This document shows positions 33,296 to 48,298 of a stretch of DNA of 64,000 nucleotides, piece after piece (the stretch's first letter is position 1; every line of letters starts with the position of its first letter). Both the position numbers and the translations under genes were made by a program. Source of the DNA: Patescibacteria group bacterium (GTDB lineage: Bacteria; Patescibacteriota; Minisyncoccia; UBA6257; Colwellbacteraceae). The stretch lies in assembly GCA_023380305.1 (NCBI GenBank), contig JAMCQZ010000005.1, positions 14,902 through 78,901 on the forward strand, in the 5' to 3' direction. The notes under the pieces were generated by a model. That model did no database searches. It was not told where the DNA came from and saw only the letters and a program-made list of their open reading frames with translations.

Positions 33296-33865
33296 CTACC
33301 GGGCGGGGAGGCTCGGTGTAGGAATCATAAACCTTATCTTATGGATCAGACAGCTGGCCCCCTCTAAAATTGACAAATTATTATTGACTGTCAGATCAGC
33401 CACCACTTGATCATTGACTTTTAGATCCGCGAAAACAATCGATTTTTCTTTATTAGTGGCCGGATCAAAAGCAGCGATGACGGCGTCTTTCTCTAAATCG
33501 CAAGTGACATCGACGCTTTCTGTCTTGGGATTGACAAAGATGCTCGCCAATTTGATAGCTATGGTGATTTTCGTCGGTAATTTTTCGCCGGCGATGTTTT
33601 TAATCGGTCCCTCGATCAAATACGGCGAATAAGTGGCAACTAATTTCTGACCGGATGAGGAAAAAATAGGAACAGTTGTTGTCGTAGGAACCGGTGTCTT
33701 AAGATCCGGAAGCTTTATTTTAAAACTGTCCAGGACGAAAAAGGTGATCCCGGTCGCGACGATAACCAATAAAACAATTAATAAAATCGTGGAATTTTTA
33801 GGCATACGCATATGATTAAAATCCTTAGTTCTTTTATATTTTGACCTTGTTTTAATTATACACAA
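33296..33865 (-). CDS. Membrane-anchored hypothetical protein; last gene of the rSAM block
   Basis: Transmembrane helix ILLIVLLVIVATGITFFVL. The start is probably MRMPKNS at about 33811; TATAAT and AAGGA elements lie upstream. Confidence 0.45.
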   Translation of the reverse strand: MCIIKTRSKYKRTKDFNHMRMPKNSTILLIVLLVIVATGITFFVLDSFKIKLPDLKTPVPTTTTVPIFSSSGQKLVATYSPYLIEGPIKNIAGEKLPTKITIAIKLASIFVNPKTESVDVTCDLEKDAVIAAFDPATNKEKSIVFADLKVNDQVVADLTVNNNLSILEGASCLIHKIRFMIPTPSLPAR

Positions 33866-35014
33866 TTACCCCAAAAATTGCATTAAAAGGGCTATCAAAG
33901 AACTGCGCGTCGACATGCAGATTAGAGCGGCTAAAAGCATATAGGGAGCAAAGGGGAAAGTTTTATAAATCTGTACTGTTATTTCCGGCTCTCCCGTGGG
34001 TATGGCGGCCAACGCCGTCACCTCGGCAGCGCTCAGCCCTTCCGGACCCCACGATCCCGAATTATCGCCCTGGTTAACGGCTGATAATTTTTCCTTGATA
34101 AGTGGTTCGGCAGAGGGACAAGGCATATCGCCCCTTTTAAGACACCTTAGCGGAACCGTCGAAATTTCTCTAGTCTGTATATAAAAAGCGATAGCCTGTT
34201 TGATAACCCTAAAGACAATCCACATAATCAATACCATCTGCACGAAGGAGAAGACTATCCCCCACTTGCCGAGCCAACCATAGTAGCCGATATAAACCAA
34301 GGGAATGGCGACGATCATCTTATCCAACCACTTGTTTTTTTTCAGATAATCCATCGCTTTTCTGAACAAAATCGCCATAGAGAAAAAAATGAATAGCGGG
34401 TTGGAAAATAGGGACTCAAATACTGTACCACTAAACGCTTTGGAAATTATTTGAAAAAAGGCGAACATCATAAAAAACATCATCAAAGAACTACCCAACT
34501 CTTTCAGTCGAAAAATGCGGGTCTTTCTTTTCTCCTCCAGAGATGATTTTTCATCAACGCGATGGTCAATCCGACGGAATCTTGTAAAATCTTGAAAATA
34601 AATAATCCCCGCTTTTAATACCAAAATGGCCAAAAGGGGAATAAAAAGATTGATCAATAGATTTATCGAAGGAAAAAATTTTATAAAACTGGCCGAATAA
34701 AATTTAAGGGGCATCAAAGCGGCGTAAACCATAAACAGCTTGGCGTCCCCTGCGGACCATAATTTTTTATCCCATAAAACGTAACCTACGACAATCGCCA
34801 AAGCGGCGTTTGATAAAACTTCAGACACATAATGGCTATTTTCCGGAAGACCGATAAAAAAATAGTTGTACAAAAAGACGAATATATAAGAAATCATCGC
34901 GCAACCTAATCCCGCGATAATTATCTTGTTAGGAATTCTGTTGTATCTGATATCCGTGTAAGCGCAGACGAGGCCTATTAAAAACATCAGCGCTATAAAA
35001 AACGCGTCTATCAT
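33866..35014 (-). CDS. A24-family (prepilin-peptidase-like) polytopic aspartic membrane protease homolog
   Basis: The first Asp motif is in YTDIRYNRIPNKIII and the second is in WSAGDAKLFMVYAAL, which resembles the GGDxKL motif. There are more than 8 transmembrane helices and a C-terminal extension. The gene overlaps rSAM-1 by 4 nt. Confidence 0.55.
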   Translation of the reverse strand: MIDAFFIALMFLIGLVCAYTDIRYNRIPNKIIIAGLGCAMISYIFVFLYNYFFIGLPENSHYVSEVLSNAALAIVVGYVLWDKKLWSAGDAKLFMVYAALMPLKFYSASFIKFFPSINLLINLFIPLLAILVLKAGIIYFQDFTRFRRIDHRVDEKSSLEEKRKTRIFRLKELGSSLMMFFMMFAFFQIISKAFSGTVFESLFSNPLFIFFSMAILFRKAMDYLKKNKWLDKMIVAIPLVYIGYYGWLGKWGIVFSFVQMVLIMWIVFRVIKQAIAFYIQTREISTVPLRCLKRGDMPCPSAEPLIKEKLSAVNQGDNSGSWGPEGLSAAEVTALAAIPTGEPEITVQIYKTFPFAPYMLLAALICMSTRSSLIALLMQFLG

Positions 35015-35958
35015 GATTTGGATGTGTTTTTGACGGCGACGATCGGATGATAAATAAAATCTTGGCCTCGGCTCATTTTAAAAGCGCCCATCGACGACCT
35101 GATCGGCTCAAACTCTTTATCTCCGATAAGTCGAAGATAATCATTATGAATCCCCATGCAATATTTCTTGTATAAACAGGTGGAACATTTTTTAGGAAAA
35201 GAGACTTCTGTAGCCGGTAAGGTCCGCCAGGCATGTGGCCAAAGATCCGACGGCAAGGCGCAAAGAGGAAAATGGTACAATCGAAGATCGTTGATTTTGA
35301 CGGCCCACTTGCGGATGCTTTTGGCCACCTCGGACTCGACATCCTGATAGGTTATCCCCACCCGCTTCAGATGATCCCCACACTGGCCCTCTAATTCATG
35401 AAAAATTAACACGACCGCGTTCAATCCCCTGAAACTCTTATAGATAAATTCCAATAAACCATCAAGTTTTTTGTAATTTTGTTTAATAATGACCGTCCTT
35501 GTCTCCACAAAATGACTATCGTTTCTGAAGCGCAAAATATTTTTCAATCCTTGAACAGCCTGGGGAAAACCACCTTTAACGCCGGTTATCTCGTCGTACA
35601 GTGCCGGCGTGTGACCGTGCATGGCGATTTCCAACTTTAAGTTTTCGACGGCTAAAACTTTTTTAGCAAAATCATCGTATGCGAACATCCGGCCGTTGGA
35701 AACGCAAACGATTTCGTTATCCGGAAATTCTTTCCTAATCCAATTTAAAAGTTGGACAAACTGCGGAACAATCGTCGGTTCTCCGCCGGTCAAATTAATT
35801 GATTCTCTGCTTTTAAAAAGTCGATCCGCGCAGTCTTCGATGCGCTTGATTAATTGATTATAACCGTAAGCGCGGCTATCTCGCGGATTATTGAACTCGG
35901 CGGGATTGGAGCACATTACGCACCGGTTGTTGCATCGATTCGTTATGCAAAACTCCAT
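35011..35958 (-). CDS. Radical SAM enzyme with a C-terminal SPASM/twitch-like Cys cluster (rSAM-1)
   Basis: CITNRCNNRCVMC matches the CxxxCxxC radical-SAM motif. The C-terminal Cys cluster is CALPSD...CSTCLYKKYCMG. Confidence 0.8.
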   Translation of the reverse strand: MEFCITNRCNNRCVMCSNPAEFNNPRDSRAYGYNQLIKRIEDCADRLFKSRESINLTGGEPTIVPQFVQLLNWIRKEFPDNEIVCVSNGRMFAYDDFAKKVLAVENLKLEIAMHGHTPALYDEITGVKGGFPQAVQGLKNILRFRNDSHFVETRTVIIKQNYKKLDGLLEFIYKSFRGLNAVVLIFHELEGQCGDHLKRVGITYQDVESEVAKSIRKWAVKINDLRLYHFPLCALPSDLWPHAWRTLPATEVSFPKKCSTCLYKKYCMGIHNDYLRLIGDKEFEPIRSSMGAFKMSRGQDFIYHPIVAVKNTSKS

Positions 35959-35970
35959 CTTACCGGATGA

Positions 35971-36213
35971 TTAAAAATTTACTTCTGAGGCGTCCTTATA
36001 TTCGGCTATCTCGGCCAAAGTGACTTCATAACGACGGGCTTGATCTAAAAGTTCTTCCCGAGCCTTGCGTTTGGCTTCCGCTATGTTGTCCGCCCACACC
36101 CAACCGACCACCTCGAAATGCTCTTTGCTTCTATAAGTGACGATATAAGTTTTTTCTCCTTTGTTTTTATTTTTTTTAGCGTTCATGCTTACGGTTTGTA
36201 TTATAAGCATCAA
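35971..36213 (-). CDS. Small hypothetical protein nested between rSAM-1 and rSAM-2
   Basis: The 80-aa ORF has a probable start at MNAKKNKNK near 36186. Confidence 0.35.
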   Translation of the reverse strand: MMLIIQTVSMNAKKNKNKGEKTYIVTYRSKEHFEVVGWVWADNIAEAKRKAREELLDQARRYEVTLAEIAEYKDASEVNF

Positions 36214-37180
36214 GCATCTTTTTTTGCTCGACGCTGATTTTTTTAACGGGCGACAATTCTTGATCGCCGTAATGCTTTAGATATTCGACCCATATACCCT
36301 CGCAGGCATTATACAATGCGCACCCGCCACAACGCAAAGTCTTTTTCCGAGCCCACTTTTTCCTCGATTCCAAAGCATCAAAATCAACAAAATCTTGGGC
36401 GATGTGTTCGGTATTGAAGGTTTTTGTTTCGTGCAACTCGCTGATTCGATTCAAATAATCAGGAAAATGGCAAAGCGGCACGTATCTTATATCCCAATGG
36501 AGCACATCCTTTTTCCCCCCGAGATCGAGGCATTTTCGGATATAAGGCGCCGCTTCGGATATTTTGGGAACCAGTTCCTCGAAATAACGTTTGGCTCCGC
36601 CTTCGTTGCAATCGACAAAAATGAATTCGGAATCAACGATGCCGTGGTTTAAAATAAATTTCCCTATCTGGGGCAGATAACGATAATTCTGTTTGACAAT
36701 AGTCGTGTTCGAACCGAAATGAAAATTAATTTGTTTCCGCTTAATAATTTCTTGAAGATTCGTCAACCCTTTTTTGAGCTGTTCGAAACTCCCCGGGGCT
36801 TGTGTCAGATAATCATGAATCTCCGGCTTGTGCCCGTGAATAGAAAAAACGACGCTGTTAAGACCGGCTTCCACAAGTTTTTTGGCGACCGATTTATAGG
36901 AAAACATCCGGCCGTTGGTCGCGATCATAATCGTATGAAAACCGATTTTTTTCGCAAAACCGACGATGTCGGGAAAGTCCGGTCTCATCGTCGTTTCCCC
37001 GCCGATGAGTTCGAGATAAACCGTGCCCCTCTTTTTGGCGGCGAATATTTCTTTTTTGATTTCATGCGTCGGTCTGACGGGCATACTCCTTTTGTCCTGT
37101 TCCATGCAAAACCGGCAATGATTATTGCAGGCATAACCCACGAAGATGACGCTTTTGGAGATTTTGCTTTCTTTCCTCAT
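36176..37180 (-). CDS. Radical SAM/SPASM-like enzyme (rSAM-2)
   Basis: GYACNNHCRFC, and C-terminal CGGCALYNACEGIW. The track ORF extends to 37342, and the start was trimmed to MRKESK to limit overlap with the upstream gene. Confidence 0.75.
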   Translation of the reverse strand: MRKESKISKSVIFVGYACNNHCRFCMEQDKRSMPVRPTHEIKKEIFAAKKRGTVYLELIGGETTMRPDFPDIVGFAKKIGFHTIMIATNGRMFSYKSVAKKLVEAGLNSVVFSIHGHKPEIHDYLTQAPGSFEQLKKGLTNLQEIIKRKQINFHFGSNTTIVKQNYRYLPQIGKFILNHGIVDSEFIFVDCNEGGAKRYFEELVPKISEAAPYIRKCLDLGGKKDVLHWDIRYVPLCHFPDYLNRISELHETKTFNTEHIAQDFVDFDALESRKKWARKKTLRCGGCALYNACEGIWVEYLKHYGDQELSPVKKISVEQKKMLDAYNTNRKHER

Positions 37181-37220
37181 TTTGATTCTATAAAAAGCCT
37201 GGGTGTCGACTATATTCCGG

Positions 37221-38117
37221 TCATATCTGCAATCCTTTCTCGCCGTATAAATCAAGGTAGTCCTGTAATATGCCATCGCATGAAGATTTGTAGGGACACT
37301 CGGCACACAAATTAATGCGTACTTTATTGGAGTTCTTTTCAAGACATGGAAAAAACAAATCTCTGGCGGTTTTCGGCAAGCTGCACGGTAAAAATTCGAC
37401 TAGAAGGAACTTAACCGGCGATTTTTGATATTTGTTTTTTTGGAGTACTCCGGCGACGTAACGGCTGAGAGTCGGCATATGACAGACGACACCTTTATCG
37501 CGGGATCGCTTACTCAAAGGCGCCACCCATAAAATGTTTATTTCCTTGACCCCCAAACGAATCAATAAATCGAGCGTCAACTCAAGGGTCGGATAATTAT
37601 GACGCGTGAGCGGAACATTAACGAGGATGCTCAAACCTGGTTTTCTCAAAGCCATCAAATTTTTGATCCCCTGAACCGTTTGCTTGAAACTGCCCGGAAC
37701 TTGAGTCATCAAATCATGCGTTTTCTCGTCGGCGCTGTTGAAAGAAATCCCCACCTGGTTGACGCCGCAAGCGATCATTCTTTTTGCAAAAGCCGGATAA
37801 GAAAGCAGGCGGCCGTTGGTGGCGACGCTCACCTGCCTGAATTTCAAAGTTTTTACAAAAGCCAGAAGCTTAAAGAAATCCGGCCGCAAAGTCGGCTCCC
37901 TACCCATTAGGCTTATAAAATCGTAATGGGCCCTGACTTGTTTAACCTCATCCTTTAACTCCTCCAAGCTTTTGTTCCGGAGATTTTTCAGATATTCATC
38001 GGCTTCGCTGCAAAATGAACAGTTATTGTTACAGGCGTAACCGCCGTAAATGTACGGACTGACATATTCGTGGCCTCGATCCGGCCACCTTTTTTTATCA
38101 TTCAAGCGTTTAGCCAT
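37221..38117 (-). CDS. Radical SAM/SPASM-like enzyme (rSAM-3)
   Basis: GGYACNNNCSFC, and C-terminal CAECPYKSSCDGI. The track ORF extends to 38162; the MAKRLNDKK start at 38117 leaves a 2-nt gap after the upstream stop. Confidence 0.75.
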   Translation of the reverse strand: MAKRLNDKKRWPDRGHEYVSPYIYGGYACNNNCSFCSEADEYLKNLRNKSLEELKDEVKQVRAHYDFISLMGREPTLRPDFFKLLAFVKTLKFRQVSVATNGRLLSYPAFAKRMIACGVNQVGISFNSADEKTHDLMTQVPGSFKQTVQGIKNLMALRKPGLSILVNVPLTRHNYPTLELTLDLLIRLGVKEINILWVAPLSKRSRDKGVVCHMPTLSRYVAGVLQKNKYQKSPVKFLLVEFLPCSLPKTARDLFFPCLEKNSNKVRINLCAECPYKSSCDGILQDYLDLYGEKGLQI

Positions 38118-39081
38118 GGCGTTTTTTCGGACGAATCTTATTAACGATCTTTCGAGGATCATCGTGTCGCGGCTTAAAATCAGAAACTCCGTAAAGGACT
38201 TTCAGGCGCGGGTAAAACCCTCCGCAGATCTCGTTCATCGAACACTCGACGCATTGAGGAGCCTTGTTCGCCACCGTGTGATCGGGTTTTTTAAAATCGA
38301 GTATCCTCTGGCCGCTATAATAATCATCCAATATTTTCAATCCCGTGAATCGAAAGTTGGTCGACACGGCATGCGTTTCGAATCCTTTCACGTGGCATAA
38401 AGGCACTATTTCTGAAATATCAAAATTAATTTTATATTCTTCGCACTTACGACAAGCCTTCCGGAGATAAGGACCGATGTCGGCCATTCTGGGAATAATC
38501 CATTTGTTCTCCCAAGCCCAACCGTCCGGCACGACGATGCTCAAATTGAGATAGAATCGCCCGCTTCGAATGTCCAAATCATGAACAAAATCGATCATCG
38601 CCGGCATGTCTTTATAATTGACCGAGTTGATCACGTGAATCAAGTGAAGTTCAAATCCCAACTGGCTAGCGCTTTTAATATTGTCTACGATAGTCTTGGA
38701 CCCGTAATTAATGCCTCGCAACTTATTGCTGATTTCCTCTCTATGACTATGAAAGGCAAAATTGATGATATCTAAACCCGCCTTCCGCCAAGCCATAAGC
38801 TCTTTAACACCGAACATCGTGCCGTTGGTTTGGATCTCTACGATAAATCCCCGCTTCTTCGCCTCCATGATGATACCGGATAATTTTGGATGGAGCGTCG
38901 GTTCTCCTCCGGTTAAAATAACGCGATGGGTTATATTCTCTCTTTTAAGCCTGTCGAGCTCTTCCTTGATTTTTGAAAACGGATAATCATCCGACTCGAA
39001 GCCGACCGGAGGACGGTTGCAAAAAACGCACTTCTGATTGCATCTTGAATTTATCTGCAGATAAGTATGGGTTTCCGCCAT
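38110..39081 (-). CDS. Radical SAM/SPASM-like enzyme (rSAM-4)
   Basis: NSRCNQKCVFC, and C-terminal CVECSMNEICGGFY. Confidence 0.8.
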   Translation of the reverse strand: MAETHTYLQINSRCNQKCVFCNRPPVGFESDDYPFSKIKEELDRLKRENITHRVILTGGEPTLHPKLSGIIMEAKKRGFIVEIQTNGTMFGVKELMAWRKAGLDIINFAFHSHREEISNKLRGINYGSKTIVDNIKSASQLGFELHLIHVINSVNYKDMPAMIDFVHDLDIRSGRFYLNLSIVVPDGWAWENKWIIPRMADIGPYLRKACRKCEEYKINFDISEIVPLCHVKGFETHAVSTNFRFTGLKILDDYYSGQRILDFKKPDHTVANKAPQCVECSMNEICGGFYPRLKVLYGVSDFKPRHDDPRKIVNKIRPKKRHG

Positions 39082-40299
39082 TTATGGATTATCGTTTTTT
39101 ACGATCACGGCCATTATTTTCTTTTCTCGCAACGAATGCGCTAACGGCTGCAAATATCGCTCTATATAATCCGTTAATATAATCGCATTTAATTTGCCGT
39201 CCGCCAATCTTGATATTATCGCCTCGACATCGCCCGCATTTCTCAAACTGGCCCTGATTTTATTGCCCTTGAAGCTACGGGCGGTAACCGGCTTTAATCC
39301 GTCAAAACCGAATAATTCAATATACTCTCTCCAAAAACCCTGGCAGTAACCGGAAAGGATGCATCGCAAACAGTCCCTGTGTTTGTTTTTATAGAAATCT
39401 ACCGCTTCTTTTGACGACCATTCAAATTCATGAAAAACATCTTGACCGACCGCGCCAGCTACTTTTTCTTCTCCAAAAGACAATGATTGGAGAACCTTCT
39501 CTTCAAACCCCGGAATAATGCATAAAGGAAACTGGCCGCAAGCGGCTATACTCGTTTCATAATGATTTTGATTCAAAAAAATCAGAGCTTTCGTCAAAAA
39601 CGGTTTTAACAAACTAAACGGCACATAGATCCATTTATTTAAAACGGCATTTCCTTGAGGAAATGGGTAAGCTAAGGTGACGCTATGCACCGCCGGGAAA
39701 TTAGCGGAGATAAATGAACAAAACCTGGGCAAATAGCGAAAATTATCATTGGTAATCACGTGGTATACCGACATTCGGCGCTTGCTTTTAACGATAGCTT
39801 GCATGCCCTTGAACGTTTTCGAGTATGCTCCCGATAATCCGGTGATACGGTCGGAAATAACAGCGTTGTCGGCGTGCAACGAGACGCTAAAGACCAACTT
39901 GTGTTTAGTGTCCGCCTTAAAAACTTCTCCGGCGTAATGTTTATCGGCCATTCTGACAGCGTTGGTTAAAACCGAAATCGTCCTCAACCCTTTTTGCTTT
40001 TCCGCATAATCAATAATCTCGGGCAGATCATCGCGCAAGGTCGGCTCTCCGCCGGTTAACATAATTTCCTCTCCTCCGACTTCTGAAAAATCCTTAATAA
40101 CCCTTTTAACTTCTTTAAGATCCATCAAAGGAAAATTATGCTCGTTGCCTTTGATAAGGCAAAAATTGCAATTCTCATTGCATTGAGCGCCCAGGTTAAT
40201 ATAGAGGACTTCCGGAACGGCATCACCAGATCGTTCGAAAAACGTCTTTTTCTTGCCGGCGATCACTTTTTCAATTTTTTGAAGGGTGTTTTTTTTCAT
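39082..40299 (-). CDS. Radical SAM/SPASM-like enzyme with a C-terminal extension (rSAM-5)
   Basis: GAQCNENCNFC, then CLRCILSGYCQGFW, plus about 70 extra C-terminal residues. Confidence 0.8.
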   Translation of the reverse strand: MKKNTLQKIEKVIAGKKKTFFERSGDAVPEVLYINLGAQCNENCNFCLIKGNEHNFPLMDLKEVKRVIKDFSEVGGEEIMLTGGEPTLRDDLPEIIDYAEKQKGLRTISVLTNAVRMADKHYAGEVFKADTKHKLVFSVSLHADNAVISDRITGLSGAYSKTFKGMQAIVKSKRRMSVYHVITNDNFRYLPRFCSFISANFPAVHSVTLAYPFPQGNAVLNKWIYVPFSLLKPFLTKALIFLNQNHYETSIAACGQFPLCIIPGFEEKVLQSLSFGEEKVAGAVGQDVFHEFEWSSKEAVDFYKNKHRDCLRCILSGYCQGFWREYIELFGFDGLKPVTARSFKGNKIRASLRNAGDVEAIISRLADGKLNAIILTDYIERYLQPLAHSLREKKIMAVIVKNDNP

Positions 40300-41258
40300 T
40301 TTTCCGAGCCCAATAAATCAGCAATACAAGACCCGATATCTTTCTCCACCGCAGCCAAACCAAAAATCTGGGGGTACGGCTTCCAAATCCCGGCGCAACG
40401 TTTTTTCATAGAACAATCGGCGCAAACGCCGAGTCTTGTCTTATGGATATCCTCGTAAAGATCGCCTTTATTGCTAAAGCGTTGCGGATTATAACCGACC
40501 TGCTTGAACTCGTCCACGCGGCCTTGAGCGTCAAAAACCGTAATGTGTTGATCTTTAATAAGCCTTTTTCCGAGAACGCATACCGGAAAATCGAAAAACT
40601 CGACTTGGTCGAACCGATCGATGATCCCCGCCAGTCGGCGAATATTTAAAGAAAGCGTTTTGATATCAACGGCCAATTTATCATAAAATTGCTCGGCGTT
40701 ACCGAAAGGTATCAAATCGAGCAAGCCCCAAACGCGCACACCCAAATTCGAAAGAAATTCCCCCGTTTCCAAAAGATAGCCACAATTCAAACGACAGACG
40801 ACAGTATTGACGCTTAAGGTGACGTCTTTACGCGCCAAAATATTTTTGATGCCGGCGACGGTCTGTTTAAACGAATCCGGAGTCCTCGCAATGGCATTAT
40901 GTGTTTTAGCGTTCGGTCCGTAAAGCGTCAAAGTGATGCGGTTTAACCCTGCATCCGCAGCTTTATTTAAAAAACGTTCGTAACCGAACATCCGGCCGTT
41001 GGTGCTCATGGCAATTTCCGTAAAACCGCTCTTTTTAGCCGCGGCGATTAAAGCAAAAATATCCGGCCGGATGGTCGGCTCTCCGCCGGTGAATTCCACG
41101 CGCGCGTAACCGGATCGTCGTCCCTCGTCAATCAGTTTTAAGATATCCCGCGTATTTTTGTCCTTGTTCAACTTCGCTTGCGGCCGCAAAGAACAAAGCA
41201 AGCAATTATTATTGCAAGAGAATCCCGTCATAATTAGCCACAACTTACTTGTGTCCAT
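40296..41258 (-). CDS. Radical SAM/SPASM-like enzyme (rSAM-6)
   Basis: GFSCNNNCLLC, and C-terminal CADCSMKKRCAGIW. Confidence 0.8.
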   Translation of the reverse strand: MDTSKLWLIMTGFSCNNNCLLCSLRPQAKLNKDKNTRDILKLIDEGRRSGYARVEFTGGEPTIRPDIFALIAAAKKSGFTEIAMSTNGRMFGYERFLNKAADAGLNRITLTLYGPNAKTHNAIARTPDSFKQTVAGIKNILARKDVTLSVNTVVCRLNCGYLLETGEFLSNLGVRVWGLLDLIPFGNAEQFYDKLAVDIKTLSLNIRRLAGIIDRFDQVEFFDFPVCVLGKRLIKDQHITVFDAQGRVDEFKQVGYNPQRFSNKGDLYEDIHKTRLGVCADCSMKKRCAGIWKPYPQIFGLAAVEKDIGSCIADLLGSEK

Positions 41259-42264
41259 TTTCTCTTTTTATACTTTGAGTTTTTTCTAGGTCGCTGCTTT
41301 TAACTAAAATCGGTATATAGGGATGATCCTTCTTTTTCTTAATAAGACTCTTTCCGTCCTTATAGACCTCGAAGAAATCAGGCGTCATCGTCAAACGATT
41401 TCCCTCGACAATCTTTTTCTGGACCATCCGCAATTCTGCCAGATAAGAGCTGTCATTGTCTTGATAAAACTCGGCAGAAGTTATTCGCGGCTCCATTTTT
41501 TTATAGGCGATTTCGGAGTGCAGGAAATCGTCGCTTTGAAAATCGCCTTTTAATAAAATCCTGTCGGCACAATTCCAATAAAGCGCAGCATAATTCTTAA
41601 GCTGGTCTTCGGTTTCAGCGACAAAATCGGGCGCGACGTCTCTCATGGCGTCTAAAATAGCATCGACGTATTTTTTGCTCGGAGAACAATCCAGGCTACA
41701 AGGAAAATGAGGTATCAGAGACAATATAAAAACATTCAACTGCCAAGCTACTTTTTTCGATCTTTTCAACGATTCAACGGCCGGATTTCGAAAACCGAAA
41801 TTATCCGGGTTCGCATCGTTATTATTAAGATAATTTCCGAATTCGAGGCAACAGTCGGGATATCCCATGAGTTTCCCAAAACTTTTTCCATAACGGCTGT
41901 CGAGCATTTTCCAGTGATAATGAGCGACGGCGCTCAAAGCCTTTTTCCGGTCTTTAGAGATACCGATGATCAGGTTCCCGTCGCGAGGATCATCAAGACT
42001 GACTTCTTGGAAGATACCCCTCGGACTGTTGATAATGTATTTTCGACGGGAAAAAGCCATTTTTAACCCCAATTCCGAGCACAACTCTCCCAGTTTTTTT
42101 AATCTCGCGGGCGTGGAGACGTCATAGACACCGGTGTTAGCCTCGGCCATGGCCGGCTTGATGTCGTACACCACGCCAAGAAGCTCAAGCGACGACAAAT
42201 AAAATAACTGACCGATTTCCAAAACCTTATTGTAAACCTCTGTTTTATTTGTCGTTTTTGGCAT
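41245..42264 (-). CDS. Hypothetical protein with conserved Cys motifs, embedded in the rSAM array; not a radical SAM enzyme
   Basis: It has no CxxxCxxC motif but carries MGYPDCCLEFG and LIPHFPCSLDC. The track ORF extends to 42444, and the start was trimmed to MPKTTNK. Confidence 0.5.
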   Translation of the reverse strand: MPKTTNKTEVYNKVLEIGQLFYLSSLELLGVVYDIKPAMAEANTGVYDVSTPARLKKLGELCSELGLKMAFSRRKYIINSPRGIFQEVSLDDPRDGNLIIGISKDRKKALSAVAHYHWKMLDSRYGKSFGKLMGYPDCCLEFGNYLNNNDANPDNFGFRNPAVESLKRSKKVAWQLNVFILSLIPHFPCSLDCSPSKKYVDAILDAMRDVAPDFVAETEDQLKNYAALYWNCADRILLKGDFQSDDFLHSEIAYKKMEPRITSAEFYQDNDSSYLAELRMVQKKIVEGNRLTMTPDFFEVYKDGKSLIKKKKDHPYIPILVKSSDLEKTQSIKRENGHK

Positions 42265-43180
42265 GTCGGCGCGTTTTGACGACCGGTCGGAATTCTCCCC
42301 ATCCGAAAATATCTGGATATTCTCTCCACGGTCCTTCGCATATCTTATTATGCTTGCATTTAATACACAAAGAGCCCTTGGCTTTCCCGCGTTCGCGCCG
42401 ATACGTGGCATAATCTTTAATATCGATATTGGCGTCGAACACATGGGCGTCCGGTATAATCTGTTCGGCGATATAAGTCTCGTAACCGGCCATCAAACAG
42501 TATGGTATAGCTTCGGTCATGCAATTAACGCCCGCTTTCTTGCCTATATCTAAAGCTTCCTTGACGTACGGCATCACATCGGTCACTCGCGGAACGATTT
42601 CTTCTATCTGGCACAGATCGTGGGCGATCAAATTGTTGATGTGGATAAAAGCGCATTGGAATTGGTCAACGCCGAGCCGCACTAAAAGCCTGGCGATGTT
42701 CGGTAAATCTTTATAATTAATTTTGGTGATGACCGTATTCGTCATCACCCGCTTGCGAAGTCCAACAAGGTTTTTGATGCCCTGGACGGTCTGATCGAAG
42801 CTTCCTGGAGAACGCGTCAATTTGTCATGGATAGCCGCGGTCGAACCATGCAATGCCGGGCTGAAATCATCGGCTCCGGCGCGAATTATTTCTTTACAAT
42901 AATCAAGATAGGCGAACACCCGGCCGTTTGTCTGGATCTGAATGGGTTTATAACCCAACTTGTGGGCATAGGCCACTGCCTCCAAAAGCAACTCTTTTCT
43001 CAAGGTTGGCTCTCCTCCGGTGAAGACGACCTCGTCGCATCCTTCTTTCCAGCTCTGTTTCAAAATGGACTTTATCTCCTCGATCGGACGATTCGGATAA
43101 TGATATCTTTTATCTCCCTGAACGCAGAAAACACAATGATTATTGCACTGAAAACCCATTTTTAAATCCAACCTTTTCAT
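42245..43180 (-). CDS. Radical SAM/SPASM-like enzyme (rSAM-7)
   Basis: GFQCNNHCVFC, and C-terminal CIKCKHNKICEGPW. Confidence 0.8.
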   Translation of the reverse strand: MKRLDLKMGFQCNNHCVFCVQGDKRYHYPNRPIEEIKSILKQSWKEGCDEVVFTGGEPTLRKELLLEAVAYAHKLGYKPIQIQTNGRVFAYLDYCKEIIRAGADDFSPALHGSTAAIHDKLTRSPGSFDQTVQGIKNLVGLRKRVMTNTVITKINYKDLPNIARLLVRLGVDQFQCAFIHINNLIAHDLCQIEEIVPRVTDVMPYVKEALDIGKKAGVNCMTEAIPYCLMAGYETYIAEQIIPDAHVFDANIDIKDYATYRRERGKAKGSLCIKCKHNKICEGPWREYPDIFGWGEFRPVVKTRRHAKNDK

Positions 43181-45147
43181 AACGCTGTCTTATTAATCGA
43201 TTTTATCTTTGAAATTTGACAAAAATCCCGATAAATCTCTTCTCTATCCGCATACGCCTTAAAATTTTTGCGGCCCGTTTTTCCCGCCGCGAAGCGCACT
43301 TTGTCGTCCGCAACGCGATACAGTTCAAGACATTCCTTATAGGTTTGGGGCAATTCTAATTCCGCACAAAAGGACGCGTAGTTTTCCGGCCACAATCCTT
43401 TGGGAAGAGGCTCTGTTATTTTAAAATAGACCCGGTTTTTGCGTAAGGCCCTTAAAAATTGAAGGATTTTCTTGCCATTTTGAGGATTGATATCTTTAAG
43501 TTTTAGTTGAAAATTCAAAAGCACCGCCGTCAGTTCCTCTCGGCTGTTTTTATATTCGATTATCTTTTTTTTCAAGTCCTGAAGACGGTCTAATCGGTCG
43601 ACGATAATATAGGGATTTTTGGCAAGGTCTTCGCCGTTTTTACTCATTCGCAGTTCAAAATCTGTATACAACATAGAATAGAATAGTTTGCTCCCTCTGT
43701 ACGCCAAACAGGGTTTTTTATTAATCAAATAACGCTCGGCCAGATAGGCGAAGGCGTAAACAAGACCGTTTTTTTGATCGGCGTCGCAGCTGCGTTTCTC
43801 GGGGTCAATGCTTCCGTATTTCATGCCCAAGGCATACAAACAAATCGGCGAACAGGGAGACACTAAAGAGCACGAATCGCAGTGATTTATCGCAAACTGG
43901 TGATCAATCACATCTACCAATCGGTTAAGTTTCTTGAAATCCATTTTAATTCGTTTCGTCCCGCGATCATAACGCCCGATAAGAAAATCCTTCATAAAAG
44001 GATACTGTGTAAAATCCCAAGAGCTCGTATGCCGTGAACAGGACGACACATAGCCGTCAGGGTCAACAATAAAATAATTTTTGGTATAGATGCCGCAAGT
44101 CAACGTGTTACCCAGGGCACCGAAATTAGCCCCTCGTACGTTCATCCGCAACTCATCTTGAAGCTCCATAAACTTTTGAGCCTCTTTGAAATAAATCGTG
44201 GGGCGCTGGAAAGCTTGATAGGCTATCGATCCTTTCTTATCATCGGCCGTCTTATAAAGCTGTTCCGCAATGCCGCTGAAATTAAGCGAGCTGATATCCA
44301 ACGTCCTTACGCCCAATTGCCAAAAATAATTAATCACCCTCAAATCATTTTCATAAAATTCGTCAACAGCGGTGGTTCTCACCCTGAAGGGCGCCTTTTT
44401 TTTGACAAAATATTTGATTGTCTTTTCGACAAATTTACTACTCGCCCTACCGTTAGCCAACGGCCTATATTTGTCTTGGATAAAAGCCGGCCCATCGCAG
44501 GAAATCTGCGGAAAACCGGCATTATTAATCAGCCAATCCGCCACCGACCGAGAGATCACTCCGTTGGTCGAAATGGGCTGGATGACTACTTTGGGGATTC
44601 TTTTTTTTGCATAATCCAATATTTTTTTCAACAATTCAAACTCCAGGGTGTTCTCCCCTCCTCCTATCAACTTAAGGTTTAATTCGCCGCCGCAATATTT
44701 GGAGACGAAATCGATAGCAGCTTTCGCTATCGAAAACGGCATTATCTTGTTCTTTTCCCTCCGACCCGCTGACGCGTAACAATAACGGCACCTCAAATTG
44801 CAGTTCAGAGTTAAGTTCAATCCCAAATCTCTAAAATAATACGGCGGCTTATATATCCGCGGTCGATCGGTTTTAGGAACAATAATATTGAGATCTAAAA
44901 GTAGCTGGGGAATGGGTTCTGTCTCTGAAAAATGCCTGATATATTTGTCATAGTCTTCTAATGAAAATCTAAATATCTTGGCCAAGACAAAAGAAAAGAT
45001 GATAATTCCATCTCTCAAGGTCCATAAAGGAGTCAGATTCGGATTAATCTCAAACCTAATATTTTGAGGCAAGTTGAGTATCCTCCCGCCCTCTGCGCTT
45101 TCTACATGATAGAAACTTTTCTTTAAATCTATAATTTTTACCAACAT
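43177..45147 (-). CDS. Large radical SAM/SPASM enzyme (rSAM-8, 656 aa) with N- and C-terminal extensions; candidate HxsB/HxsC-type maturase
   Basis: LTLNCNLRCRYCYASAG, a SPASM-like cluster CGIY...CSRH...CDSCSLVSPCSPIC, and an extra ~100-aa N-terminal domain that could be a peptide-binding region. It lies immediately downstream of the precursor. Confidence 0.8.
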   Translation of the reverse strand: MLVKIIDLKKSFYHVESAEGGRILNLPQNIRFEINPNLTPLWTLRDGIIIFSFVLAKIFRFSLEDYDKYIRHFSETEPIPQLLLDLNIIVPKTDRPRIYKPPYYFRDLGLNLTLNCNLRCRYCYASAGRREKNKIMPFSIAKAAIDFVSKYCGGELNLKLIGGGENTLEFELLKKILDYAKKRIPKVVIQPISTNGVISRSVADWLINNAGFPQISCDGPAFIQDKYRPLANGRASSKFVEKTIKYFVKKKAPFRVRTTAVDEFYENDLRVINYFWQLGVRTLDISSLNFSGIAEQLYKTADDKKGSIAYQAFQRPTIYFKEAQKFMELQDELRMNVRGANFGALGNTLTCGIYTKNYFIVDPDGYVSSCSRHTSSWDFTQYPFMKDFLIGRYDRGTKRIKMDFKKLNRLVDVIDHQFAINHCDSCSLVSPCSPICLYALGMKYGSIDPEKRSCDADQKNGLVYAFAYLAERYLINKKPCLAYRGSKLFYSMLYTDFELRMSKNGEDLAKNPYIIVDRLDRLQDLKKKIIEYKNSREELTAVLLNFQLKLKDINPQNGKKILQFLRALRKNRVYFKITEPLPKGLWPENYASFCAELELPQTYKECLELYRVADDKVRFAAGKTGRKNFKAYADREEIYRDFCQISKIKSINKTAL

Positions 45148-45217
45148 AAAATTTTTTAGAATAGAGACATTCTAACGCGTAGAAAATGATCCGCAAGTTC
45201 CATCCAAAATTTTATTT

Positions 45218-45994
45218 TTATGGATAGAACTCGTATATGCCGCTATTGTGGCAACAAGACGAATAGTGGGCGGAATGGGATCCATGGGAAGAATGGGAGC
45301 CATGGGAAACATGGGAGCCATGGGAAACATGGGAACCGTGAGAAGAATGGGAAGAATGAGAAGAGTGGGAGCCATGGGAAGAGTGGGAGCCATGGGAAGA
45401 GTGGGAGCCATGGGAAGAGTGGGAGCCATGGGAGCCATGGGAAGAGTGGGAGCTGTGGGAGGAATGGGAGCCATGGGATCCATGGGAAGAGTGGGAGCCA
45501 TGGGAAGAGTGGGAGCCATGGGAAGAGTGGGAGCCATGGGAAGAGTGGGAGCCATGGGAAGAGTGGGAGCCATGGGAAGAGTGGGAGCCATGGGAAGAGT
45601 GGGAGCCATGGGAGGAGTGGGAGCCATGGGATCCGTGGGAAGAGTGGGAGCTGTGGGAGGAGTGGGAGCCATGGGAAACATGGGAACCGTGGGAAGTATG
45701 CGAAGAATGGGATGTATGTTGTCCTTTGCCGGCGACATTTTCAAACTGGCTTGTGTGGTTGGCCGCAGTCGGCGGCGCCGGAATAACCGTCTCATCTCCG
45801 GACTGATGCTGGGCGCCTCCGGTGATGTTTTGAAAATAACTCCGATGAGCGGCGGAGGCCACTTTCGTCAGCATCAAACCGAGCATCGCCAAACCGGCGC
45901 CCAACTCCAGGACGTTCTTTTTACTGATCCTGCCTTCTTCGCTGTTTAGAAAACACTCGATCTTCTTTTTAAATATCGGCAAGTTATTTTTCAT
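45218..45994 (-). CDS. His-Xaa-Ser repeat precursor-like protein (HxsA-like): signal-peptide-like N-terminus plus ~50 tandem H-x-S triplets
   Basis: 258 aa. The N-terminus KKNVLELGAGLAMLGLMLTKVASAA resembles a signal peptide. The C-terminal ~150 aa are almost purely (S-H-G-S-H-S)n with occasional T or V, and the protein ends AHYSSCCHNSGIYEFYP. It is co-oriented with the rSAM genes and tightly spaced between them. Confidence 0.7.
   Translation of the reverse strand: MKNNLPIFKKKIECFLNSEEGRISKKNVLELGAGLAMLGLMLTKVASAAHRSYFQNITGGAQHQSGDETVIPAPPTAANHTSQFENVAGKGQHTSHSSHTSHGSHVSHGSHSSHSSHSSHGSHGSHSSHGSHSSHGSHSSHGSHSSHGSHSSHGSHSSHGSHSSHGSHSSHGSHGSHSSHSSHSSHGSHGSHSSHGSHSSHGSHSSHGSHSSHSSHSSHGSHVSHGSHVSHGSHSSHGSHSAHYSSCCHNSGIYEFYP
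45268..45718. repeat. Tandem 18-nt (2 x 9-nt) DNA repeat of about 24 copies that encodes the His-Xaa-Ser repeats
   Basis: The unit GGGAGCCATGGGAAGAGT recurs with minor variants. All four frames are open, and the minus frame gives SSHGSH. Confidence 0.9.
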
Positions 45995-46000
45995 GAAGAG

Positions 46001-47464: not shown

Positions 47465-47465
47465 T

Positions 47466-47717
47466 CTATAAAATGGCTTTCATTTCCGCCAAGGCGCGAT
47501 TTGCTATTTCATCGGCGATCAGGCTGGCGTCAAACGGCTTCTTGTCCTTTACAAAGACACTCACGTTGATCGACGCTCTGGCGTCGTCGATCTCCAAACG
47601 AGCCAGGCCCTTAAATTGTCTGGCTGCTTTTGCCACGGATTCACGATTATAAAACTTTTTGTTGAAACGGATCAATCTCCCCGGCTGGACCCTTGAAGCA
47701 GTTGATTTGAGCGTCAT
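47466..47717 (-). CDS. Small hypothetical protein of 83 aa
   Basis: Co-oriented, with a 1-nt gap to rSAM-9. Confidence 0.4.
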   Translation of the reverse strand: MTLKSTASRVQPGRLIRFNKKFYNRESVAKAARQFKGLARLEIDDARASINVSVFVKDKKPFDASLIADEIANRALAEMKAIL

Positions 47718-47720
47718 CGG

Positions 47721-48287: not shown

Positions 48288-48298
48288 AAGAATAGAAA

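What the first reader, a model, noticed from the sequence alone, without database searches (positions are those of the whole stretch)
33866..35014. Prepilin-peptidase (A24)-like polytopic membrane protease encoded directly downstream of the rSAM array
The gene overlaps rSAM-1 by 4 nt, so it is translationally coupled to the array. Both catalytic-Asp motifs of A24 aspartic peptidases appear to be present: TDIRYNRIPN, and SAGDAKL which resembles GGDxKL. The precursor-like ORF has an N-terminal hydrophobic segment after a Gly (LELG-AGLAMLGLML). An A24-type enzyme could therefore be the leader or signal-processing protease of this system, which would be an unusual recruitment. Alternatively it may be an unrelated type IV pilin peptidase.
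Basis: inference. Interest (0 to 1): 0.55.

Follow-up and report, generated by a model that had tools for sequence, protein, structure and literature searches.

The report
Prepilin-peptidase-like protease dedicated to His-Xaa-Ser system
The gene encodes an enlarged relative of type IV prepilin peptidases that is almost always found inside His-Xaa-Ser radical-SAM gene clusters of ultra-small bacteria and archaea, so it is most likely the enzyme that trims the unusually long leader of the His-Ser-repeat protein these clusters mature.

Summary
ORF 33866-35014 (-) encodes a 382-aa polytopic membrane protein. It passes Pfam Peptidase_A24 and overlaps the upstream radical-SAM (rSAM) gene by ATGA. 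Both catalytic Asp motifs are present and near-invariant in 180 diverged relatives.

The "rSAM array" is a His-Xaa-Ser (Hxs) system: HxsD, an HxsD-like protein, HxsB, an HxsA4/A3-type repeat precursor, a SPASM rSAM and seven HxsC/HxsC4-like paralogues.

The protease (here "A24L") is not a canonical PilD. It lacks the N-terminal PF06750 domain. It carries a ~220-aa insertion of four helices plus a small soluble domain before the last FPFAP helix.

The family has at least 620 clusters at 50% identity. In 80 genome loci from Patescibacteria, Omnitrophota, Elusimicrobia, Planctomycetes and DPANN archaea, 68 have an Hxs gene within 300 bp of A24L, although gene order varies.

The HxsA precursors of these systems share a rigid ~30-aa leader, PKIKKxIxxFLxSEEGxISKx5[LI]G. 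It ends in a small residue (G in 67 of 81) at the start of a hydrophobic stretch, followed by an AxA site. Canonical four-gene proteobacterial Hxs has neither the leader nor A24L.

Canonical PilD genes lie beside related Hxs clusters, which argues against a housekeeping pilin role. Cleavage of HxsA by A24L is inferred, not shown.

The parts
33866..35014 (-). A24L: 382-aa A24-family (GxGD-type) membrane aspartyl protease-like gene, the subject of the finding
   Evidence: ORF. Pfam PF01478 at 33.2 bits, above the 26.5 cut-off. AF2 model has pLDDT 79.7 and about 10 helices. The family is conserved.
34928..34957 (-). First catalytic-Asp motif TDIRYNRIPN (D21), at the predicted cytoplasmic end of helix 1
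   Evidence: D21 is present in 175 of 176 sequences. It aligns to the invariant D119 (VYDLKHYIIPD) of Patescibacterial PilD by hhalign, with weak E of 0.02-0.03. It also aligns to IDFRTQLLPD of E. coli GspO.
34733..34759 (-). Second catalytic-Asp motif WSAGDAKLF (D90), the GxGD-type motif
   Evidence: D90 and K92 are present in 179 of 179 sequences. It is the only such motif in the window. It matches GVGDIKL of PilD and GYGDFKL of GspO by direct reading. The D1-D2 spacing is 69 aa, against 67 in PilD and 64 in GspO.
33980..34600 (-). Family-specific insertion (about residues 139-345): a charged cytoplasmic linker, four extra helices and a small soluble alpha/beta domain (284-350)
   Evidence: AF2 secondary structure. 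The insertion is absent from GspO and PilD, where the D2-to-FxP distance is 46-48 aa against 265 aa here. The cytoplasmic location is inferred from the positive-inside rule.
33944..33958 (-). C-terminal FPFAP motif at the start of the last helix, shared with prepilin peptidases (VPFGP / AFGP)
   Evidence: hhalign of A1 against A4 aligns FPFAPYML to VPFGPFLV with E=0.005. hmmsearch against GspO gives the same placement. F355 is present in 157 of 180 sequences.
45218..45994 (-). HxsA-type precursor (258 aa): leader, hydrophobic segment, AxA site, then about 45 His-Xaa-Ser repeats. This is the proposed substrate.
   Evidence: NCBIfam HxsA4 at 89 bits (cut-off 55) and HxsA3 at 49.5 bits. Leader conservation.
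45899..45994 (-). Conserved leader MKNNLPIFKKKIECFLNSEEGRISKKNVLELG (residues 1-32). G32 is the proposed -1 residue of the A24L cut.
   Evidence: 81 unique leaders align without indels. The position 11 residues after the EEG glycine is G in 67, S in 8, A in 4 and T in 2.
45848..45898 (-). Hydrophobic segment AGLAMLGLMLTKVASAA with an ASA|AH signal-peptidase-I-like site, followed by H-x-S-Y-F
   Evidence: Read directly from the sequence. The pattern recurs in most leaders.
35011..35958 (-). Last HxsC-like rSAM gene, overlapping A24L by ATGA
   Evidence: TIGR03977 HxsC at 182 bits, below the 268 cut-off. Pfam Radical_SAM.
35971..36213 (-). Small conserved soluble protein of about 70 aa that precedes the last HxsC-like gene
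   Evidence: Homologues occupy the same position in many Patescibacteria loci.
36176..43180 (-). Array of six further HxsC/HxsC4-like rSAM paralogues (36176-37342, 37221-38162, 38110-39081, 39082-40299, 40296-41258, 42245-43180), with a DUF483-like gene (41245-42444) interleaved
   Evidence: Pfam and NCBIfam. The array is conserved in relatives.
43177..45147 (-). 656-aa rSAM/SPASM-type maturase next to hxsA
   Evidence: NCBIfam best hits are PapB and HxsB-like, all below cut-off.
46001..47464 (-). HxsB rSAM/SPASM maturase
   Evidence: TIGR03978 at 492.5 bits, above the 370 cut-off.
47466..48287 (-). HxsD-like protein (47466-47717) and HxsD (47721-48287)
   Evidence: NF038315 at 48.3 bits, above the 41 cut-off. 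TIGR03976 at 63.1 bits, above the 50 cut-off.
48299..49459 (-). Secreted protein with a Sec signal and a conserved C-terminal Cys motif. It is frequently found upstream of hxsD.
33296..33865 (-). Signal-anchored protein immediately downstream of A24L. It is restricted to one clade and is a possible alternative substrate.
   Evidence: It has no Pfam or NCBIfam hit.

Best explanation
A24L is a catalytically competent intramembrane aspartyl protease of the type IV prepilin peptidase (A24, GxGD-type) superfamily. It has been recruited as a dedicated fifth component of 'leader-type' His-Xaa-Ser systems. The proposed mechanism has four steps. (1) HxsA is made with a ~30-aa conserved cytoplasmic leader, a short hydrophobic segment and an AxA site. 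The leader presumably docks HxsD, HxsB and the HxsC-like maturases, which modify the His-Xaa-Ser repeats in the cytoplasm. (2) The hydrophobic segment inserts into the membrane with its N-terminus inside. (3) A24L has its two Asp residues at the cytoplasmic ends of helices 1 and 4. Its extra cytoplasmic domain could recognise the leader. It cuts after the conserved small residue ([LI]-G, G32 in the window protein) at the boundary between leader and hydrophobic segment, as prepilin peptidases cut class III signal peptides. (4) The repeat domain is exported and released, probably by signal peptidase I at AxA. Shown here: A24 superfamily membership, conservation of the catalytic dyad, tight and phylogenetically wide linkage to Hxs genes, and the conserved leader with a small residue at the boundary. 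Inferred: that HxsA is the substrate, the exact cut site, the topology, and the order of events.
For: Pfam A24 scores above its cut-off, and 25 of 28 relatives also hit it. D21, D90, K92 and G89 are near-invariant in 180 representatives of a family with 620 clusters at E<=1e-30. The three A24 motifs are colinear with PilD and GspO, with the same Asp-Asp spacing. Of 80 genome loci, 68 have an Hxs gene within 300 bp of A24L, 73 within 3 kb and 75 somewhere in the locus. The 5 without are short or truncated. Gene order differs between lineages: after the last hxsC in Patescibacteria and Omnitrophota, before hxsD in DPANN archaea, after hxsB in L007 and L072, and after hxsA in L045, L057 and L087. 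This points to selection for linkage rather than inherited synteny. A24L overlaps the upstream rSAM gene by ATGA here, and the adjacent genes overlap or abut in relatives. HxsA proteins in these loci share an indel-free leader ending in G/S/A/T in 81 of 81 sequences (G in 67), directly before the hydrophobic stretch. The canonical hxsDBCA locus on an Aeromonas plasmid has no A24 gene, and its HxsA has only a plain ~25-aa signal. In E. coli HXS, HxsA needs a non-canonical N-terminal cleavage by an unidentified activity (PMC13128918). Dedicated or broad-substrate A24 paralogues have precedent: EppA for DUF361 pilin-like proteins, and PibD for sugar-binding proteins (PMC4343526).
Against: There is no biochemical evidence. 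The hydrophobic segment after the proposed cut is short, about 10-25 uncharged residues. It lacks the Glu+5 and Phe+1 of bacterial pilins, and position -2 is Leu/Ile rather than the Lys/Arg of archaeal class III signals. A good AxA signal-peptidase-I site follows, so a conventional extended signal peptide could suffice without A24L. In leader-anchored metagenome loci, A24L was seen in only 14 of 65. Most of those contigs are too short, but L129, L132, L134 and L143 show none within 4-10 kb although their leaders keep the Gly. Structural support is weak: Foldseek against the PDB gave no significant hit, with FlaK 3s0x at probability 0.25 and TM 0.38. Profile alignments to PilD and GspO are individually non-significant, with E of 0.005-0.03.
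Confidence: 0.6

Rival explanations
1. A24L is simply the organism's housekeeping type IV prepilin peptidase, serving pili or competence pseudopili, and lies next to the rSAM array by chance or inherited synteny.
For: It belongs to the A24 superfamily and has an intact dyad. Type IV pilus operons (PilB/PilC/pilins) lie 1.5-6 kb from Hxs clusters in about 11 Patescibacteria loci. In L037, two canonical pilin genes directly follow A24L.
Against: Linkage to Hxs genes holds in Omnitrophota, Elusimicrobia, Planctomycetes and about 37 DPANN archaeal loci that have no pilus genes nearby, and it holds in several different gene orders. Patescibacteria have a separate, highly conserved canonical PilD of about 260 aa with PF01478+PF06750 (6592 hits at E<=1e-10). 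It sits in the pilus operon next to Hxs clusters in L102, L121, L128 and L145. The HxsB of L102 is 81% identical to that of a contig that does carry A24L. A24L lacks PF06750 and has a 220-aa insertion. The 64-kb window contains no canonical pilin motif.
Confidence: 0.07
2. A24L is Hxs-dedicated but acts on something other than the leader/hydrophobic boundary of intact HxsA. It might clear the leader-plus-signal remnant after signal peptidase I cleavage, in a signal-peptide-peptidase-like role. Or it might process another exported cluster protein: the secreted Cys-motif protein at 48299-49459, or the signal-anchored protein at 33296-33865.
For: A strong AxA site follows the hydrophobic segment in most HxsA leaders. 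Eukaryotic GxGD proteases (SPP) clear signal peptides (PMC4343526). The cluster encodes other proteins with N-terminal hydrophobic segments directly after short basic N-termini.
Against: The downstream signal-anchored family is confined to one Patescibacteria clade and has no conserved small residue at the boundary. The Cys-motif protein has an ordinary AxA signal and is absent from many loci. Only HxsA is present wherever enough sequence is visible. A dedicated enzyme merely for remnant clearance is less parsimonious.
Confidence: 0.2
3. A24L is not primarily a protease. It would act as a membrane dock or export platform that tethers the maturase complex or translocates modified HxsA, with the A24 fold retained as a scaffold.
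For: About 60% of the protein (four extra helices plus a soluble domain) is outside the A24 core. The cluster encodes no transporter. The E. coli study suggests the Hxs proteins act as dedicated chaperones or accessory translocators.
Against: The near-absolute conservation of both Asp residues and the GDAKLF motif over a very diverged family argues for catalysis. There is no similarity to any transporter: the Foldseek hits were non-significant.
Confidence: 0.1

Closest known systems
Type IV prepilin peptidases PilD/GspO (MEROPS A24A; Pfam PF01478 with PF06750)
   Same: Same superfamily. The three motifs are colinear: D-x-[KR]-x3-I-P-[ND], G-D-x-K-L and F-[AG]-P. The Asp-Asp spacing is the same, 69 aa against 64-67 aa. 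By analogy the active site faces the cytoplasm and cuts after a small residue in front of a hydrophobic segment.
   Different: A24L has no N-terminal DiS_P_DiS/methyltransferase domain. It has a 220-aa insertion before the last helix. Pairwise similarity is not significant. Its genomic partners are rSAM maturases and a His-Ser repeat protein rather than pilus genes. The putative substrate lacks Phe+1 and Glu+5.
Archaeal A24 paralogues FlaK, PibD and EppA
   Same: FlaK also carries an extra solvent-exposed domain on a six-helix core (PMC4985597). EppA is an enlarged (9-10 TMS) paralogue dedicated to one substrate class. PibD cleaves non-pilin sugar-binding proteins and tolerates non-Gly variation in the GxGD motif (PMC4343526). 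FlaK is the only structurally plausible PDB match.
   Different: There is no significant sequence or fold match to FlaK. The substrates of those enzymes are pilin- or archaellin-like proteins that assemble into filaments. Nothing suggests that HxsA does so.
Canonical four-gene HXS antiphage system (hxsD-hxsB-hxsC-hxsA) of Pseudomonadota
   Same: HxsB and HxsD pass the NCBIfam cut-offs. The HxsC-like rSAMs and a His-Xaa-Ser repeat protein are present. In E. coli, HxsA must be N-terminally processed and exported to act (PMC13128918).
   Different: The window system has seven HxsC-like paralogues, a second SPASM enzyme, an HxsD-like protein, a DUF483-like protein, a 258-aa HxsA with about 45 repeats and a long conserved leader, plus A24L. 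The canonical locus has none of these, and its HxsA has a plain signal peptide and a peptidoglycan-binding domain. The published census reports 99.7% of systems in Pseudomonadota and four genes.
Dedicated membrane sorting enzyme and target-signal pairs, and RiPP leader peptidases (own knowledge: exosortase/PEP-CTERM, archaeosortase/PGF-CTERM, rhombosortase/GlyGly-CTERM; PCAT C39 domains)
   Same: The logic is the same: a polytopic membrane protease is encoded next to a precursor that carries a short, rigidly conserved sorting or leader signal adjoining a hydrophobic segment, and membrane transit is coupled to maturation.
   Different: Those systems use other protease folds and mostly C-terminal signals. 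No paper in the searched library links an A24 peptidase to an rSAM-modified precursor.

Membership tests
Peptidase family A24 (type IV prepilin peptidase superfamily, Pfam PF01478) | Significant match to the family profile | tested here: met
   PF01478 gives E=7.7e-8 and 33.2 bits against a 26.5 cut-off, over residues 9-120. 25 of 28 homologues match.
Peptidase family A24 (type IV prepilin peptidase superfamily, Pfam PF01478) | Two catalytic aspartates, the second in a GxGD / GxHyD-type motif followed by K-L | tested here: met
   D21 and D90 (S-A-G-D-A-K-L) are present in 175 of 176 and 179 of 179 family representatives. D21 aligns to the invariant D119 of PilD. The second motif was matched by direct reading.
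Peptidase family A24 (type IV prepilin peptidase superfamily, Pfam PF01478) | Polytopic membrane protein with the Asp residues at the cytoplasmic face | tested here: inconclusive
   The AF2 model has about 10 helices. The positive-inside rule places D21 and D90 on the cytoplasmic side, but this is an inference. The fold match to FlaK is weak.
Peptidase family A24 (type IV prepilin peptidase superfamily, Pfam PF01478) | Proteolytic removal of a class III-type leader from a substrate | not testable with these tools
   This needs co-expression and N-terminal mapping.
Canonical bacterial PilD/GspO subfamily (A24A, bifunctional peptidase/N-methyltransferase) | N-terminal Cys-rich DiS_P_DiS domain (PF06750) | tested here: not met
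   A24L and all 28 homologues hit only PF01478. Patescibacterial PilD proteins carry PF01478+PF06750.
Canonical bacterial PilD/GspO subfamily (A24A, bifunctional peptidase/N-methyltransferase) | Encoded with, and acting on, G|F-x-x-x-E pilins or pseudopilins | tested here: not met
   The window has no pilin motif. The neighbours are Hxs genes in 68 of 80 loci. Pilus genes are nearby in only a minority of Patescibacteria loci.
His-Xaa-Ser (Hxs/HXS) system | HxsB and HxsD above the curated NCBIfam cut-offs, with an adjacent His-Xaa-Ser repeat protein | tested here: met
   HxsB scores 492.5 bits (cut-off 370), HxsD 63.1 (cut-off 50), and HxsA4 89.2 (cut-off 55).
His-Xaa-Ser (Hxs/HXS) system | An HxsC equivalog | tested here: inconclusive
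   Seven paralogues hit HxsC or HxsC4 best, but all are below cut-off. The best are 182 bits against 268, and 166 against 500.
His-Xaa-Ser (Hxs/HXS) system | Canonical four-gene architecture hxsD-B-C-A without a protease | tested here: not met
   The window cluster has about 16 genes including A24L. The canonical architecture was seen on NC_009349 and is described in PMC13128918.
His-Xaa-Ser (Hxs/HXS) system | Antiphage function | not testable with these tools
   This has been shown only for the E. coli system (PMC13128918). PADLOC 2023 has no Hxs model.

The most novel reading that the evidence does not exclude
A24L defines a previously unrecognised five-component, leader-type HXS system that is widespread in CPR bacteria, DPANN archaea, Omnitrophota, Elusimicrobia and Planctomycetes. 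In it, a prepilin-peptidase-derived intramembrane protease is the dedicated leader peptidase of an rSAM-modified protein. The HxsA N-terminus would then be a new hybrid signal: a RiPP-style recognition leader fused to a class III-like cleavage site and a Sec-type segment. The family would supply the proteolytic step that remains unexplained in the E. coli HXS antiphage system.
Probability: 0.5. Interest if true: 0.75.

Novelty: new variant of a known kind. Interest (0 to 1): 0.62.

Why it matters
A24 peptidases are known as processors of pilins, pseudopilins and archaellins, plus a few archaeal solute-binding proteins. A large, conserved subfamily tied to radical-SAM protein maturation would extend the family's biology to the maturation of a post-translationally modified effector.

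The HXS system was shown in 2026 to block phage DNA entry in E. coli. It requires an unexplained, non-canonical N-terminal cleavage of HxsA. The systems described here encode an obvious candidate protease and a sharply defined candidate cleavage motif, so that step can be tested directly.

The result also shows that Hxs systems are not essentially confined to Pseudomonadota. Much larger, multi-maturase versions are common in ultra-small episymbiotic bacteria and archaea, where surface and defence biology is poorly understood.

Tried and rejected
- **Sequence search of PDB chains.** A single-sequence search and a profile search both gave no hit, not even FlaK.
- **Foldseek of the AF2 model against the PDB.** Nothing was significant. 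FlaK was only a weak, plausible match.
- **Direct comparison with E. coli GspO.** BLASTP and hhalign against GspO gave no significant alignment. Profile-to-profile comparison with Patescibacterial PilD gave only short local matches at the first Asp motif and the FPFAP motif. Residue mapping therefore rests on motif colinearity plus the Pfam hit.
- **Homologue search with the HxsA N-terminus.** It returned a single near-identical protein because of the word prefilter. I replaced it with a motif scan of metagenome contigs.
- **PADLOC.** It has no Hxs or A24L models, and the rSAM proteins gave only generic viperin-like rSAM hits.
- **The downstream signal-anchored protein and the upstream secreted protein as substrates.** I considered both and set them aside as universal substrates, because they are restricted to some clades and lack a conserved boundary residue.
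- **Proving that a canonical PilD and A24L share one genome.** I could only show canonical PilD beside closely related Hxs clusters whose contigs break at the hxsA repeats.
Full report
**1. Observation**

The ORF at 33866..35014 on the minus strand encodes 382 aa. Its ATG overlaps the TGA of the upstream radical-SAM gene (35011..35958) in the sequence tcATGAtag, so the 4-nt overlap is real.

Pfam scores the protein as Peptidase_A24, with E=7.7e-8 and 33.2 bits against a curated cut-off of 26.5. The match covers residues 9-120 only. NCBIfam, PADLOC and PDB sequence searches give nothing.

A third prepilin-peptidase motif, FPFAP, sits at residues 353-357.

**2. What the surrounding cluster is**

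The "rSAM array" is a His-Xaa-Ser (Hxs) system. NCBIfam gives these scores:

| Gene | Window coordinates | NCBIfam result |
|---|---|---|
| HxsD | 47721-48287 | TIGR03976, 63 bits (cut-off 50) |
| HxsD-like | 47466-47717 | NF038315, 48 bits (cut-off 41) |
| HxsB | 46001-47464 | TIGR03978, 492 bits (cut-off 370) |
| His-Xaa-Ser repeat precursor | 45218-45994 | HxsA4, 89 bits (cut-off 55); HxsA3, 49.5 bits |
| SPASM-type rSAM, 656 aa | 43177-45147 | best hits below cut-off |
| Seven HxsC/HxsC4-like paralogues | 35011-43180 | all below the equivalog cut-offs |

The remaining genes have no NCBIfam assignment:
- a DUF483-like gene,
- a conserved ~70-aa protein,
- a secreted protein upstream of HxsD,
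- a signal-anchored protein downstream of A24L.

All are on the minus strand and tightly packed. They lie in a stretch of lower G+C (0.42-0.46) than the housekeeping flanks. The flanks include secA, murB, 2-oxoacid:ferredoxin oxidoreductase, RNase III, nusB and dnaE. The identical protein is annotated in NCBI as coming from a Patescibacteria group bacterium MAG.

**3. The protein family**

A word-indexed search found 35 full-length relatives of about 360-395 aa. An exhaustive profile search of 1.84 billion cluster representatives found 620 at E<=1e-30, 1376 at E<=1e-10 and 2068 at E<=1e-3. Nearly all are full-length matches.

In a 180-sequence alignment, conservation is as follows:
- D21 is present in 175 of 176 non-gap sequences.
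- D90 is present in 179 of 179.
- K92 is present in 179 of 179.
- G89 is present in 174 of 179.
- W81, P102 and N29 are near-invariant.

Of 28 members, 25 hit PF01478 individually.

Comparison with E. coli GspO and with an alignment of canonical Patescibacterial PilD proteins shows three colinear motifs:

| Motif | A24L | PilD | GspO |
|---|---|---|---|
| First Asp | YTDIRYNRIPN | VYDLKHYIIPD | IDFRTQLLPD |
| Second Asp | SAGDAKLF | GVGDIKLAF | GYGDFKLL |
| Last helix | FPFAP | VPFGP | AFGP |

The first-Asp match to PilD comes from hhalign at E of about 0.02-0.03. The FPFAP match comes from hhalign at E=0.005 and from hmmsearch. The second-Asp match is by direct reading.

The Asp-Asp spacing is 69 aa in A24L, 67 in PilD and 64 in GspO. 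The distance from the second Asp to the FxP motif is 265 aa in A24L against 46-48 aa in the others. This indicates a ~220-aa insertion.

The AF2 model has pLDDT 79.7 and pTM 0.71. It shows about ten long helices. The insertion comprises a charged linker, four helices and a small alpha/beta domain at residues 284-350. By the positive-inside rule, both Asp residues and the soluble domain face the cytoplasm; this is an inference.

Foldseek against the PDB gave no significant match. FlaK (3s0x) was the only plausible one, at probability 0.25, TM 0.38 and rmsd 5.8 Å over 151 columns.

So A24L is a member of the A24 superfamily with an intact dyad. It is not a PilD or GspO orthologue: it lacks PF06750, which canonical Patescibacterial PilD proteins have.

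**4. Genomic association**

Six contexts fetched by exact protein look-up all place the gene in or at the end of an rSAM/Hxs cluster, even where the flanking housekeeping genes differ.

A scan of one genome per species for the motif WSAGDAKL returned 80 loci. They come from Patescibacteria, Omnitrophota, Elusimicrobia, Planctomycetes and about 37 DPANN-type archaeal MAGs. I annotated them with phmmer, using the window's own proteins as queries:
- 68 of 80 have an Hxs-type gene within 300 bp of A24L.
- 73 have one within 3 kb.
- 75 have one somewhere in the locus.
- The five without are 1-2 kb fragments, or contigs that end within about 2 kb of the gene.

Gene order is not constant:
- In Patescibacteria and Omnitrophota, A24L follows the last hxsC-like gene.
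- In DPANN archaea the order is A24L-hxsD-hxsB-hxsA.
- In L007 and L072 it follows hxsB.
- In L045, L057 and L087 it follows hxsA.

Linkage that survives such rearrangement, across two domains, indicates a functional tie.

One caveat applies. The scan pattern selects members with the exact WSAGDAKL motif.

**5. The candidate substrate**

HxsA proteins in these loci match NCBIfam HxsA4/HxsA3. They share an indel-free N-terminal leader, [LIF]-P-K-[IL]-K-K-x-[IL]-x-x-F-L-x-S-E-E-G-x-I-S-K-x5-[LI]-G.

A second, independent scan anchored on the leader motif EEG[KR]ISKK in metagenome contigs returned 65 loci. In those with enough flanking sequence, the leader ORF lies beside hxsB or hxsD.

Across 81 unique leaders, the residue 11 positions after the EEG glycine is G in 67, S in 8, A in 4 and T in 2. 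This is G32 in the window protein. It is followed by 10-25 uncharged residues and then an AxA-like site, ASA|AH in the window. After that, H-x-S-Y-F is common.

The canonical hxsD-B-C-A locus on an Aeromonas plasmid has no A24 gene. Its HxsA begins with an ordinary ~25-aa signal peptide and has no such leader.

So the long leader and A24L go together. The only conserved small residue sits exactly where prepilin peptidases cut: at the junction of a charged cytoplasmic leader and a hydrophobic segment.

**6. Weaknesses**

- The hydrophobic segment is short and signal-peptide-like.
- The residues flanking the proposed cut do not resemble pilin consensus.
- An AxA site could make A24L unnecessary for release.
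- A24L was seen in only 14 of the 65 leader-anchored loci. Most of those contigs are short, or break at the hxsA repeats. However, L129, L132, L134 and L143 show none within 4-10 kb, and their leaders keep the Gly.
- Nothing here demonstrates proteolysis.

**7. The housekeeping-peptidase rival**

The window contains no G|FTLIE-type pilin and no second GDxKL motif.

Indirect evidence is as follows:
- Canonical PilD-type genes of 262-282 aa (VYDLKHYIIPD...GxGDVKL) sit in pilus operons immediately upstream of leader-type Hxs clusters in L102, L121, L128 and L145.
- That PilD type is very common, with 6592 hits at E<=1e-10. All 120 listed hits carry PF01478+PF06750, and several are named as Patescibacteria proteins.
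- The HxsB of L102 is 81% identical to the HxsB on contig SDBV01000285.1, which does carry A24L.

Pilus operons are nearby in about 11 Patescibacteria loci, and pilin genes directly follow A24L in L037. I record this as unexplained. It is absent from the other phyla and from the archaea.

**8. Comparison with what is known**

In E. coli, HXS is an antiphage system. [quoted passage not shown] The paper does not mention a protease or peptidase. Its census reports 99.7% of systems in Pseudomonadota with four genes (PMC13128918).

Archaeal A24 paralogues give precedent for specialised or extended enzymes:
- FlaK has an extra beta domain (PMC4985597).
- EppA has 9-10 TMS and a dedicated substrate class (PMC4343526).
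- PibD cleaves non-pilin sugar-binding proteins (PMC4343526).

No paper in the searched library links a prepilin peptidase to an rSAM-modified precursor. NCBIfam has models for HxsA3, HxsA4 and HxsC4 but none that matches A24L.

**9. Verdict**

A24L is best described as a new, large subfamily of A24 aspartyl proteases that forms a conserved accessory component of leader-type His-Xaa-Ser systems. Its most likely role is to remove or process the HxsA leader at the membrane; I put confidence in that at about 0.6, and lower for the exact site.

It is a new variant of a known kind rather than a new kind of system. Its value lies in giving a concrete, testable candidate for the unexplained proteolytic step of HXS maturation, and in revealing elaborate Hxs systems in CPR bacteria and DPANN archaea.

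Noticed in passing
window 33296-49459: The whole Hxs cluster has lower G+C (0.42-0.46) than the housekeeping flanks (0.48-0.54). This suggests a horizontally acquired island.
   Followed up: no
window 48299-49459; also L011:327-869, L047:1058-1701, L094:6367-7713, L096:6161-6619, L102:7032-7751: A secreted protein family with a Sec signal and a conserved C-terminal motif, CPxGYY...GYMLCCKVxNP, recurs immediately upstream of hxsD in many loci. It has no Pfam or NCBIfam hit.
   Followed up: partly
window 35971-36213; L001:8856-9056, L003:8837-9052, L005:8828-9046, L009:8825-9046: A conserved soluble protein of about 70 aa (YIVTYRSxEHFEVxGWVWA...AEIAEY) always precedes the last HxsC-like gene, just before A24L, in Patescibacteria. 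Its function is unknown.
   Followed up: partly
window 41245-42444: A DUF483-like protein (weak Pfam hit, 19 bits) is interleaved in the HxsC array. It is conserved in relatives from Patescibacteria, Planctomycetes and Elusimicrobia.
   Followed up: partly
window 33296-33865; L001:11194-11676, L003:11175-12207, L005:11250-11741, L098:1486-1974: A signal-anchored protein family of about 160-190 aa lies directly downstream of A24L, sometimes in 2-3 paralogues, and only in one Patescibacteria clade. Each has a short basic N-terminus followed at once by about 20 hydrophobic residues.
   Followed up: partly
L005:15312-19196, L016, L017, L023, L024, L027, L037:6341-7991, L102:1-6287, L121, L128, L145: Type IV pilus operons (PilB, PilT, PilC, pilins, and a canonical PilD in four loci) lie within 1.5-6 kb of Hxs clusters in about 11 Patescibacteria loci, on either side of the cluster. 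The cause could be shared synteny or a functional link; this is unresolved.
   Followed up: partly
L102, L104, L113, L120, L121, L145 (locus ends): Metagenome contigs frequently terminate inside the hxsA His-Xaa-Ser repeat region. Such clusters are therefore systematically split in assemblies, and co-occurrence counts are underestimated.
   Followed up: no
window 45172-45949, both strands: Several long ORFs of 188-233 aa in other frames and on the opposite strand overlap the hxsA repeat. They are artefacts of the repetitive codon structure, not genes.
   Followed up: no
L010-L089 (record titles): Hxs systems with many maturases occur in CPR bacteria, Omnitrophota, Elusimicrobia, Planctomycetes and DPANN archaea. 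This is at odds with the published census, which places 99.7% of HXS systems in Pseudomonadota (PMC13128918). Several MAG labels, such as 'Methanosarcinales', 'Bacillales' and 'Saccharibacteria', look unreliable.
   Followed up: partly
L001:6078-7874, L003:6054-7862, L009:4607-8062, L005:1-2297: Relatives carry additional large or fused rSAM proteins of 598-1151 aa inside the HxsC array, one with a methyltransferase domain. The window lacks these. The content of the array is highly variable.
   Followed up: no
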